The notes under the pieces: generated by a model
Seen by the model: only the letters and a program-made list of their open reading frames with translations
Database searches by the model: none
What the model was told of the DNA's origin: nothing
Position numbers and translations under genes: made by a program
Assembly (NCBI GenBank): GCA_052171275.1
Contig: CM125795.1
Location: forward strand, 651,557 to 715,556
Direction of reading: 5' to 3'
Length of the DNA stretch: 64,000 bases
From: Arsenophonus sp.
GTDB lineage: Bacteria > Pseudomonadota > Gammaproteobacteria > Enterobacterales > Enterobacteriaceae
Part shown: positions 17,247 to 18,525 of the stretch, piece by piece
Numbering within the stretch: position 1 is the first letter of the stretch
How the letters are laid out: every line of letters begins with the position of its first letter

Positions 17247-18525
17247 TTAATTTTTATAAAAAATATTTGAACTATTTGTAAAACTAAAACAAAATGAATT
17301 AAATAAAGAACATTAAATATATTTAACTTTATAATATTAACTTTTTCTTCTATAAGATTTAACCAAATATAAACACTTATTAATTTTATTTTAAGTTACT
17401 ATCAAAATTTTTAAGGTTAATCATTGAGAAAACAAGTTAATTTTTGATAATAAAATGGTGAGATAGTTTTAATTACATTTTCTGATCACAACAAATGATC
17501 GATTGTATGATATATTTCTCCAACTAATTAGTATTTTGTTTTATTTTTATAAAAATATGTAGAATCTCGCATTTGAATAGTAATATTTCTTATATATTAA
17601 TTAATTAAGTTAATATCAATTATAGATTATTTTTTATGTCTATATATCCGCATAATTAATTTATTCTAGTTATTAGGAAATATATATTTATTTTTATAAT
17701 TAAATTATATTATAATAATCACTTATTATAAACTAAAAAAATAAGATAAATTCTTATAATATTAATTCTTAATATATTAAGATATTTTTATACGGTTCTA
17801 AATATTTACATATTTTAATATAAAACTATCATTTTCTAATTTAGTTGATCTGTTTATTTACTATAGTCATTTATTATATTTTAATAAACATTTAATCAAT
17901 AAAACTTATAAAATAAACATTAAAGAATATCTTTATTTTTTATTGTAATTTTCTAGCACGATATTAATATAGTATTAAATAATAATATGTGTTAAGAATT
18001 AATATAATTAATAATCATAACATAAGTTATGTTAATAAAGATAATTTTAATTTAAATTTATAAATAATACTTAAATAGATAATTAACTATTATGTTATAA
18101 TTTTTTTAAAAAAGAAAAATAACTTATTTTATGTTGATTATTATTTTAGTAATTTAATTTAATTTTATTAAATTATATTTAATTTTAATATTAATAGTTA
18201 GTAACTATATACTTAATATCATGGTATTTTATTTTTTGATTTTGATATATTTTATCTTTATATAAATTTTATTTATTGATAATTTTATATCATATTAAAT
18301 AAAATCTTCTCTTATATAAGAGAAGATTTTATTTATTTTAAAATTTCATAATTTGCTATGATCAAAAATCTTCAAACAAAATAATGAATTTAGTTGTATA
18401 GTTTTTTAATATTAAGAAGTTTTATAAGATTTATAATGCAATTATTTGTATAATTAGCTATAAAAAGCATTAATTATGCTTCAACAAAGAGTTGTTGAAT
18501 GCAAAATAACACGATAAGTATATCT
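17247..18525 (-). pseudogene. fabF: fabF (3-oxoacyl-ACP synthase II) fossil
   Basis: The C-terminus is clearly readable on the minus strand (17300 to 17247): NSFCFSFTNSSNIFYKN* vs E. coli NSFGFGGTNGSLIFKKI*. N-terminal traces are weaker: YRVILHSTTLC* vs RRVVVTGLGML, and INLIKLLNIKKLYN*IHYFV*RF vs [23 protein letters not shown]. It lies between acpP and pabC as in E. coli, spans ~1280 bp vs 1242 bp, and has no ORF of 60 aa or more. Confidence 0.7.
18296..18335. repeat. Perfect 40-nt palindrome (20-bp arms, no spacer) inside the fabF fossil
   Basis: The sequence is ttaaataaaatcttctcttat|ataagagaagattttatttaa. All 20 pairs were checked by hand, and each arm contains G/C bases. Confidence 0.9.

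What the first reader, a model, noticed from the sequence alone, without database searches (positions are those of the whole stretch)
18296..18335. A perfect 40-nt palindrome lying inside the fabF fossil, so it was created de novo
**Seen in the sequence.**
- The palindrome ttaaataaaatcttctcttat|ataagagaagattttatttaa lies about 65-75 codons into the recognisable fabF pseudogene.
- The remains of ISLIDHFDT...KDF can be read just upstream on the minus strand, and NSFGFGGTN...* at the 3' end.
- One arm can still be loosely read as fabF-like codons (NKIFSYIRED vs RKMDAFIQYG). The other arm is its exact reverse complement.

**Inference.**
- A functional fabF cannot have contained this palindrome. 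It therefore arose after inactivation, most simply by an intramolecular template switch that copied one arm onto the other (quasi-palindrome perfection).
- This gives a dated, mechanistically interpretable example for the whole class of palindromes in the window.
Basis: partly seen in the sequence, partly recalled or inferred. Interest (0 to 1): 0.65.

Follow-up and report, generated by a model that had tools for sequence, protein, structure and literature searches.

The report
Template-switch palindrome inside dead fabF
A perfect 40-base palindrome sits in the decayed remains of a fatty-acid gene of an insect-symbiont bacterium; one arm is old gene sequence and the inner part of the other is a reverse-complement copy of it, a clean example of replication "template switching" making hairpins in junk DNA with no sign of a function.

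Summary
Window 18296-18335 is a perfect 20+20 palindrome; about 0.015 of that size are expected by chance per genome. It lies in a real fabF fossil (17247-18548, minus strand). The fossil is shown by fabH-fabD-fabG-acpP-[gap]-mltG synteny and by a frameshift-tolerant alignment to an intact genus FabF, 12 SD above 400 control segments. The palindrome covers FabF codons about 65-77.

Eight intact or nearly intact fabF genes of the genus and three intermediate pseudogenes lack it. It is a net +8 to +11 nt change, so it cannot have been in a working gene. The fabF-downstream arm (18315->18296) still aligns to ancestral CAAGATGGATCTTTTTATTCA. The inner 12 nt of the other arm replace ancestral TGCGCG and equal the reverse complement of the first arm. 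An ancestral 6-nt inverted repeat (AAAGAT...ATCTTT) supplies the landing homology.

The sister genome (about 10% neutral divergence) carries a 19-bp-stem version nearer the ancestor. The two differ by a mirrored 2-nt indel that adds or removes one G:C pair.

Genome-wide, about 480 such palindromes lie in non-coding DNA, placed at random relative to genes. They diverge faster than their flanks and show 3- to 7-fold excess mirror-complementary double changes.

Verdict: a by-product of template-switch mutation, with no sign of function. The mechanism is known; this example is unusually clean.

The parts
18296..18335 (.). Perfect 40-nt palindrome (20+20, centre 18315|18316), 3 G:C pairs, unique in the genome
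   Evidence: sequence. (shuffle null). (mirror-repeat control). (no other copy with 2 or fewer mismatches). (DNA hairpin -14.8 kcal/mol).
18296..18315 (-). Template (ancestral) arm. On the fabF sense strand it reads ATAAGAGAAGATTTTATTTA = I R E D F I (*), derived from ancestral CGC AAG ATG GAT CTT TTT ATT CAA (R70-Q77).
   Evidence: 7-genome MAFFT. (eight intact or nearly intact genus fabF genes conserve this stretch almost without change). (frameshift-tolerant alignment); alignment score in the top 1.5% of 5000 random non-coding 20-mers.
18316..18335 (-). Copy arm. The inner 12 nt (18327->18316, ATCTTCTCTTAT) replace ancestral TGCGCG(C) and equal the reverse complement of the template arm. 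The outer 8 nt (18335->18328, TAAATAAA) overlie ancestral TCGGCCAAAGA.
   Evidence: the insertion falls in this half; similarity to the ancestral counterpart is at chance, with 60% of random 20-mers scoring as well.
17247..18548 (-). fabF fossil, 1302 nt against 1263 nt intact. It has many stops and frameshifts and 143/420 residues identical to the FabF of genus member G014.
   Evidence: alignment score 240 against controls 26.7 +/- 17.3 (maximum 79), z = 12.3. (alignment). (synteny). Plain tblastn does not find it, and PF00109 finds only fabB.
18583..18611 (-). Hairpin just after acpP (13-bp stem, 3-nt loop), conserved across the genus. Probably the native acpP terminator. It lies upstream of the palindrome in the direction of transcription.
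   Evidence: I13; conserved as CAGGCGGTC..GACCGCCT in G014 and CAAACGGTC..GACCGTTTG here.
18647..18907 (-). acpP, intact. Its stop codon is 312 nt upstream of the palindrome.
   Evidence: NF002149, E = 7e-44.
16482..17097 (-). pabC fossil, the next gene of the ancestral operon.
   Evidence: tblastn E = 3e-8 at 16482-16769, and the N-terminus at 17023-17097.
15215..16237 (-). mltG/yceG, intact. It is the downstream synteny anchor.
   Evidence: TIGR00247, E = 2e-110. (E. coli order acpP-fabF-pabC-mltG).

Best explanation
The palindrome is a by-product, without detectable function, of replication template switching (quasi-palindrome mutation) in the dead fabF gene.

**Proposed history**
1. The intact gene held a weak inverted repeat: AAAGAT (K67 D68), 13 nt, then ATCTTT (D73 L74 F75).
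2. At or after the loss of fabF function, on the branch leading to this genome and its sister G011, a nascent strand that had copied the K71-I76 segment folded back. It copied itself across the centre and re-annealed at the AAAGA/TCTTT homology.
3. This replaced about 6-14 ancestral bases (..TGCGCG) with the reverse complement of the downstream segment. The result was a stem of about 19 bp and a net gain of about 11 nt.
4. After the split from G011, this lineage changed again in ways that keep or increase symmetry. The G:C pair was lost from both arms (AG and CT), the centre changed G->A, and the stem grew by two pairs at its outer end. The cheapest account is one small deletion in one arm followed by a second template switch that recopied that arm onto the other.

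**Shown and inferred**
- Shown: the fossil, the ancestral sequence, which arm is old, the sister state, and the genome-wide statistics.
- Inferred: the strand-switch steps themselves, their number, and neutrality.
For: **At the locus**
- The fabF fossil is proven and in synteny.
- The palindrome is absent from 8 intact or nearly intact fabF genes, in which the stretch AAA GAT GCG CGC AAG ATG GAT CTT TTT ATT CAA is nearly invariant, and from 3 intermediate pseudogenes.
- The extra bases fall in the upstream half. The downstream arm matches the ancestor (top 1.5% of random 20-mers) and the upstream arm does not.
- Sister genome G011 has AATAAAGAATCTTCTCTTA-CA-TAAGAGAAGATTCTTTATT on the window + strand. 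It differs from the window by a mirrored AG/CT indel, which is one whole G:C pair. Losing a G:C pair weakens the hairpin, so selection for stability does not predict this change.

**The whole class**
- Numbers: 170 perfect palindromes with arms of 14 or more, against 3.5 in shuffles and 13 mirror repeats.
- Complete palindromes (loop 0 or 1) are the commonest form. Templated copying predicts this; a hairpin that needs a loop does not.
- Location: 476 of 487 lie in non-coding DNA, placed like random non-coding points relative to gene 3' ends.
- Divergence from G011 is higher in palindromes (15.6%) than in their flanks (10.1%).
- Mirror-complementary double substitutions: 7 observed against 1.1 expected at A:T pairs and 9 against 1.9 at G:C pairs. 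Non-complementary doubles are at expectation.
- Palindromes perfect in both genomes but different in sequence: 11 observed against 3.1 +/- 1.6 simulated.
- Differences pile up in one arm, and multi-nt clusters are 2.5 times denser than in the flanks.

**Repair background**
- recA, mutS and mutL were not found in this genome. This removes the RecA recombinase and the MutS/MutL mismatch-repair system as routes to arm homogenisation.
- The mechanism is established in the literature (PMC8794818, PMC5453318, PMC6357072).
Against: - No direct observation of the event, and raw reads could not be inspected.
- The support for the downstream arm being ancestral is moderate on its own (P about 0.015). 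It also leans on positional anchoring in very A/T-rich DNA, where alignments are soft.
- Whether one or several events built the stem cannot be told.
- Neutrality is argued from class-level statistics. This single hairpin could still be used, for example as a barrier for transcripts reading through from acpP; that is not excluded.
- Choosing palindromes that are perfect in one genome by itself raises their apparent divergence somewhat.
- Excess mirrored changes at G:C pairs are partly expected from the high G/C mutation rate, though this was modelled.
- The link to lost nucleases is weak. sbcC was found in none of the 8 genus genomes searched, and the tool cautions that an empty answer there shows nothing. 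G004 keeps xseA yet has the same palindrome excess.
Confidence: 0.8

Rival explanations
1. A functional hairpin kept by selection, for example a second transcription stop or RNA-stabilising structure behind acpP, a protein-binding site, or a replication or nucleoid element. Compensatory changes would then reflect selection on pairing.
For: - The stem is retained in both sister genomes with a compensated G:C pair change.
- The hairpin is stable.
- It lies downstream of a highly expressed gene.
- Excess compensatory changes in the class are the classic sign of selected stems.
Against: - The palindrome is complementary right through its centre, which no hairpin function requires. Loop 0 or 1 is the commonest class genome-wide.
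- The class is placed at random relative to gene ends and evolves faster than its flanks.
- acpP already has its conserved hairpin 260 nt upstream of the palindrome.
- On the acpP strand no U-run follows the stem.
- No terminator-like site was called in the region and there is no Rfam match.
- The lineage-specific change removed a G:C pair, which weakens the stem.
Confidence: 0.08
2. The arms are kept alike by a process other than replication template switching. Candidates are intramolecular recombination or gene conversion between the arms, or repair of mismatches in an extruded cruciform.
For: Coordinated changes in both arms show only that the arms exchange information. They do not show how.
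Against: - recA, recX, mutS and mutL are undetectable in this genome. RecA-dependent conversion and the MutS/MutL mismatch-repair pathway are therefore unavailable.
- Arms of 12-20 bp are too short for homologous recombination.
- The original event added new sequence that is a reverse-complement copy. That is synthesis, not exchange.
Confidence: 0.08
3. Remnant of a mobile element (IS or MITE ends, or a REP/RPE-type palindromic repeat) that inserted into fabF.
For: It is a net insertion in a gene, and insertion elements do inactivate symbiont genes.
Against: - No other copy of the arm with 2 or fewer mismatches exists anywhere in the 2.03-Mb genome.
- The long palindromes of the genome all have different sequences.
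- One arm aligns to ancestral fabF, and only about 8-11 nt are extra.
Confidence: 0.02
4. Chance product of extreme A/T richness, or an assembly artefact.
For: Non-coding DNA here is 12% G+C, so short A/T palindromes abound. Reads could not be checked.
Against: - The expected number is 0.015 per genome.
- None with arms of 18 or more appeared in 10 shuffles.
- Mirror repeats of equal chance expectation are about 15 times rarer.
- The palindrome contains three G:C pairs.
- An orthologous copy is present in an independent assembly.
Confidence: 0.02

Closest known systems
Quasi-palindrome (template-switch) mutagenesis in E. coli: Ripley's model and the Lovett laboratory reporters (PMC6357072 and its reference 25, Laranjo et al. 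2017)
   Same: - An imperfect inverted repeat is made more perfect.
- The nascent strand folds back and copies the other arm.
- Several bases change in one step.
- The process is independent of RecA.
   Different: - Here it is seen as fixed evolutionary history in a dead gene, not in a reporter.
- The stem built (19-20 bp from a 6-bp seed) is longer than typical hotspot corrections.
- Dependence on ExoI, ExoVII or RecBCD could not be tested. recBCD is intact here.
Template-switch mutations that create and maintain RNA hairpins (Monttinen and Loytynoja 2022, PMC8794818; Loytynoja and Goldman 2017, PMC5453318)
   Same: - A reverse-complement copy of adjacent sequence creates a perfect stem in one event.
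- Later switches restore pairing and mimic compensatory substitutions.
   Different: - Those cases are in functional RNA genes, where selection and mutation are confounded.
- Here the substrate is unconstrained fossil DNA, so the mutational signal is seen without selection.
- The ancestral sequence is known from intact orthologues rather than reconstructed.
Inverted-repeat expansion by template switching in eukaryotes: yeast promoters (PMC13100816) and de novo miRNA hairpins (bioRxiv 10.1101/2023.04.19.537475)
   Same: Homogenisation and expansion of imperfect inverted-repeat arms by polymerase template switching, detected by comparative genomics.
   Different: Those are eukaryotic and linked to gain of function. 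Here the setting is bacterial, with no function evident.
Rho-independent terminators and REP/RPE palindromic repeat families
   Same: Hairpin-forming palindromes in bacterial non-coding DNA.
   Different: - No loop, no G+C-rich stem and no U-tract on the transcribed strand.
- Single copy.
- Not placed at gene ends.

Membership tests
Template-switch (quasi-palindrome) mutation product | The derived sequence cluster is the reverse complement of immediately adjacent sequence | tested here: met
   The inner 12 nt of the upstream arm (ATCTTCTCTTAT) are the exact reverse complement of ATAAGAGAAGAT in the downstream arm. In G011 the stem is 19 bp.
Template-switch (quasi-palindrome) mutation product | The ancestral state lacks the cluster, and the donor segment is ancestral | tested here: met
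   Eight intact or nearly intact genes and 3 half-decayed fabF genes lack it. The donor arm matches the ancestor at the top 1.5% of random 20-mers; the copy arm is at chance.
Template-switch (quasi-palindrome) mutation product | A pre-existing short inverted repeat or microhomology at the switch-back point | tested here: met
   Ancestral AAAGAT (K67 D68) and ATCTTT (D73-F75) are 13 nt apart in seven of the eight genus fabF genes fetched; G008 has AAAAAT on the left.
Template-switch (quasi-palindrome) mutation product | The change arose as one multi-base event during replication | not testable with these tools
   Only end states are available. Parsimony and the genome-wide clustering of differences in one arm favour it.
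fabF (beta-ketoacyl-ACP synthase II) pseudogene | Conserved position between acpP and pabC/mltG | tested here: met
   The gap is 2409 nt against 2263 nt for fabF+pabC in E. coli.
fabF (beta-ketoacyl-ACP synthase II) pseudogene | Residual sequence similarity above the composition-matched background, with a disrupted frame | tested here: met
   z = 12.3 against 400 control segments. 143/420 identities, with many stops and frameshifts. Standard tblastn and Pfam searches miss it.
Intrinsic (rho-independent) terminator | G+C-rich stem, loop of 3-8 nt, U-tract, placed just after a gene | tested here: not met
   No terminator-like site was called. Only 3 of 20 pairs are G:C and there is no loop. No U-run follows on the acpP strand. 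It lies 312 nt past the acpP stop, beyond the conserved acpP hairpin.
Repeated palindromic or mobile elements (REP, RPE, MITE, IS ends) | Multiple related copies in the genome | tested here: not met
   It is the only hit with 2 or fewer mismatches in 2.03 Mb. The long palindromes are all different in sequence.
Known structured RNA families (Rfam 15) | A covariance-model match at the gathering score | tested here: not met
   No match anywhere in the window.

The most novel reading that the evidence does not exclude
In this symbiont lineage, template switching may be frequent enough to dominate how hairpins arise and change across about 1.35 Mb of unconstrained DNA. It would continually create, perfect and re-copy hundreds of palindromes, and so produce 'compensatory' covariation with no selection at all.

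The pair G000/G011 would then be a natural null data set. It could be used to calibrate covariation-based RNA-structure inference and to measure template-switch rates, tract lengths and seed requirements in vivo. In the dead fabF gene, and in other fossils with intact orthologues, the ancestral sequence is known, so individual events can be polarised.
Probability: 0.5. Interest if true: 0.7.

Novelty: new member of a known kind. Interest (0 to 1): 0.55.

Why it matters
**A solved single case.** Template switching is usually inferred from mutation clusters whose ancestral state has to be reconstructed, or in genes where selection on structure confounds the signal. Here the substrate was a highly conserved enzyme gene. 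The pre-event sequence is therefore known base for base from eight relatives. The donor and copy arms can be told apart, and a sister genome preserves an earlier stage.

**A caution for RNA-structure inference.** The class statistics show that mirror-complementary double changes arise several-fold more often than independent mutation predicts, in DNA that shows no sign of constraint. Covariation is widely taken as proof of a functional RNA stem, so this matters for that practice.

**A symbiont oddity.** This genome is two-thirds fossil DNA at 12% G+C. The fossils examined here keep almost their original length, and they are filling up with hairpins.

Tried and rejected
- **Standard homology searches miss the fossil.** PF00109 on the whole genome found only fabB. 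tblastn with E. coli FabF at E<1 found nothing, although the neighbouring pabC fossil is found. A purpose-built frameshift-tolerant alignment with composition-matched controls was needed.
- **First G011 alignment failed.** I aligned the wrong strand and repeated it correctly.
- **Terminator reading.** No terminator-like site was called, and promoter-like hits were at shuffle level.
- **Mobile-element reading.** The arm is single-copy.
- **Dating by phylogeny.** A FabG tree resolves only G000+G011 (100/100) and G001+G006+G018. Deeper order is open, so I cannot say whether fabF died once or several times.
- **A third lineage.** G004 has a palindrome about 200 nt after acpP that starts with the same AATCTTCT. 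No fabF fossil is detectable there (z = 0.06 local and 0.7 end-to-end), so homology is unresolved.
- **Link to nuclease loss.**
  - sbcC was found in none of 8 genus genomes, including a 3.6-Mb one.
  - xseA is intact in palindrome-rich G004.
  - recJ is lost or decayed in most of the genomes searched.
  - No single loss explains the excess. It tracks the amount of A/T-rich neutral DNA.
- **A blastn-based orthologue mapping timed out**. It was replaced by unique 24-mer anchors.

Full report
**The sequence.** Window 18296-18335 reads TAAATAAAATCTTCTCTTAT|ATAAGAGAAGATTTTATTTA.
- All twenty pairs around the centre 18315|18316 are complementary, and the pair outside them is not.
- The window belongs to a 2.03-Mb, 17.9% G+C genome. 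Its genus holds genomes of 0.66-3.9 Mb.
- By a rough ORF mask, about 33% of the genome is coding (29.8% G+C) and 67% is non-coding at 12.1% G+C.

**Is it more than chance?** Yes.
- With non-coding base frequencies, a complementary pair has probability 0.393 per step. That gives 0.015 palindromes with arms of 20 or more expected per genome.
- Ten block shuffles that keep local composition gave none with arms of 18 or more. The genome has 31 with arms of 20 or more and 170 with arms of 14 or more, against 3.5 in shuffles.
- Mirror repeats have the same chance expectation and the same sensitivity to low complexity. They number 13 (arms of 14 or more) and 2 (arms of 20 or more). The excess is therefore specific to reverse-complement symmetry.

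**Is it inside a fabF fossil?** Yes.
- On the minus strand the window has intact fabH, fabD, fabG and acpP (20766-21734, 19806-20741, 19064-19798, 18647-18907). A 2409-nt gap follows, then intact mltG, tmk and holB.
- E. coli has acpP-fabF-pabC-mltG, with 2263 nt for the same interval.
- tblastn still finds the pabC fossil (E = 3e-8) but not fabF. A Pfam search of the genome finds only fabB.
- I aligned the 420-aa FabF of genus member G014 to window 17100-18646 (minus strand) with a frameshift-tolerant dynamic programme. The score was 240, against 26.7 +/- 17.3 (maximum 79) for 400 low-G+C control segments of the same genome, z = 12.3. The reversed protein and the opposite strand scored at background.
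- The alignment has 143/420 identities. It includes NlKNYTTKFIILFEDF against [16 protein letters not shown], and the C-terminal NSFCFSFTNSS against NSFGFGGTNGS.
- The fossil runs from about 18548 to the old stop codon at 17247-17249: 1302 nt against 1263 nt intact.

**Which arm is old?** The fabF-downstream arm.
- Seven of the eight intact or nearly intact fabF genes of the genus carry essentially the same stretch, AAA GAT GCG CGC AAG ATG GAT CTT TTT ATT CAA TAT GG. They differ from it at no more than one to three bases. The most A/T-rich gene, G008, differs more at its 5' end.
- A seven-way alignment (intact G014, recently broken G007, half-decayed G018/G001/G006, sister G011, and the window) shows the palindrome only in G011 and the window. 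It is a net +11 nt change in G011 and +8 nt in the window.
- The downstream arm (window 18315->18296, ATAAGAGAAGATTTTATTTA) lines up with ancestral GCAAGATGGATCTTTTTATTCA. Most mismatches are G/C->A/T. It reads IREDFI* against RKMDLFIQ.
- Its alignment score is in the top 1.5% of 5000 random non-coding 20-mers. The upstream arm scores at chance against its own ancestral counterpart.
- The upstream arm's inner 12 nt (ATCTTCTCTTAT) stand where the ancestor had TGCGCG. Its outer part overlies ancestral ..CCAAAGA.
- The ancestor already held the 6-nt inverted repeat AAAGAT...ATCTTT. This is the homology at which a folded-back nascent strand could return to its template.
The idea behind it is right.

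**The sister genome.** G011 is 2.03 Mb and collinear with this genome. Their fossil DNA differs at about 9-10% of columns.
- On the window + strand G011 carries AATAAAGAATCTTCTCTTA-CA-TAAGAGAAGATTCTTTATT: a 19-bp stem with the central pair mismatched.
- It keeps the ancestral G of AAAGA, the C of GATC and the central G, so it looks like the older state.
- The window lineage lacks AG in one arm and CT at the mirrored place in the other, which is one whole G:C pair. It also has the centre changed to a pairing T:A, and two more pairs at the outer end.
- Two independent 2-nt deletions at mirrored sites are very unlikely. One deletion followed by recopying of one arm onto the other explains all four differences.

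**The class.**
- Perfect stems of 12 or more with loops of 0-12 nt number about 1300, against about 200 in shuffles. Loop 0 (268) and loop 1 (219) are the commonest forms. If loops were arbitrary sequence, complete palindromes would be the rarest form.
- 476 of 487 palindromes (stem of 12 or more, loop 0 or 1) are in non-coding DNA. Their distance to the nearest upstream gene end matches that of random non-coding points.
- The long ones are all different in sequence, and ours is single-copy.

**Comparison with G011 across the genome.** I fetched 1.6 Mb of G011 and mapped 172 G000 palindromes and 167 G011 palindromes to their orthologues.
- Palindromes differ at 15.6% and 14.7% of columns, against 10.1% and 8.9% in their flanks. 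They are not conserved. If anything they turn over faster, although picking perfect ones inflates this somewhat.
- In ungapped cases, mirrored pairs in which both bases changed and stayed complementary number 7 observed against 1.1 expected (A:T pairs, P = 1.5e-4) and 9 against 1.9 (G:C pairs, P = 1.9e-4). In the reverse direction the figures are 10 against 1.4 and 7 against 2.2. Non-complementary doubles sit at expectation.
- Under simulated independent mutation with the measured rates, palindromes that are perfect in both genomes yet different occur 3.1 +/- 1.6 times. Observed: 11, and 14 in the reverse direction.
- Differences concentrate in one arm: the sum of |dL-dR| (the left-arm minus right-arm difference count for each palindrome) is 310 against 219 +/- 17. 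Multi-base clusters are 2.5 times denser than in the flanks.
- Example in this window: at 24081-24116, G011 differs by AACAG against TTTAT in one arm only.

**Repair background.**
- tblastn with E. coli proteins finds no sbcC, sbcD, xseA, recJ, recA, recX, mutS or mutL.
- recBCD, dnaQ and rnhA are intact.
- ExoI (sbcB, window about 30406-31823) has one frameshift near codon 49, shared with G011.
- Loss of recA and mutSL argues against recombination or mismatch repair as the homogeniser.
- The nuclease losses fit what is known to raise quasi-palindrome mutagenesis (PMC6357072 and its reference 25). They are not specific, however: sbcC was found nowhere in the genus, xseA is intact in G004, and G004 has the same palindrome excess (125 against 20). 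G001, at 32% G+C, has few (12 against 0.6).
- The excess tracks the amount of A/T-rich unconstrained DNA.

**Function?** I found no sign of one.
- There is no Rfam match and no terminator-like call.
- On the acpP strand no U-run follows the stem.
- The conserved acpP hairpin lies 260 nt upstream of the palindrome.
- The nearest upstream + strand ORF of at least 80 aa ends 13 kb away.

**Verdict.** The mechanism is known (PMC8794818, PMC5453318). What is new is the clean polarity at this locus and the genome-scale view in DNA that shows no constraint. An earlier agent of this scan reached the same mechanism for another hairpin in this window (note e1-4146511). I did not use that as evidence.

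Noticed in passing
window 30406-31823 (+): sbcB (exonuclease I) has a single frameshift near codon 49 (about 30543-30549), separating the N-terminal HDYETFG exonuclease motif from the rest. The other 427 codons are stop-free and 52% identical to E. 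coli. The same frameshift is in sister genome G011. It may be rescued by slippage, or the enzyme may be crippled.
   Followed up: partly
window 16238-18646: The fabF and pabC fossils keep nearly their original length (gap 2409 nt against 2263 nt in E. coli; fabF 1302 against 1263 nt), although fabF has decayed to 34% residue identity. This implies almost no deletion bias in a genome that is two-thirds non-coding at 12% G+C.
   Followed up: partly
window 24081-24116: An 18+18 perfect palindrome. Its G011 orthologue differs by a cluster of 4 changes within 5 nt in one arm only (AACAG here, TTTAT there). This is a candidate post-split template switch that introduced a C and a G into an A/T-biased genome.
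   Followed up: partly
L051 (G004:C1:457000-463000), about 200 nt downstream of acpP: The 0.85-Mb relative G004 has a palindrome, AATCTTCTTATTCTACTTATA-C-TATAAGTAGAATAAGATT, in roughly the same place. It begins with the same AATCTTCT. No fabF fossil is detectable there, so homology with our palindrome is unresolved.
   Followed up: partly
whole genome G000 and relatives: By tblastn with E. coli proteins, recA, recX, mutS, mutL, recJ, xseA, sbcC and sbcD are undetectable, while recBCD, dnaQ and rnhA are intact. sbcC was not found in any of 8 genus genomes. recJ is intact only in the 3.6-Mb G014.
   Followed up: partly
G004:C1:200001-600000 (L127-L146): The palindrome excess is not limited to this species. 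G004 (18% G+C) has 125 stems of 12 or more with loop 0 or 1, against 20 in shuffles, and 17 with stems of 20 or more. G001 (32% G+C) has only 12 against 0.6.
   Followed up: yes
genome contig C2 (7.9 kb): A second small contig at 14.8% G+C. It may be a plasmid or an unplaced piece.
   Followed up: no
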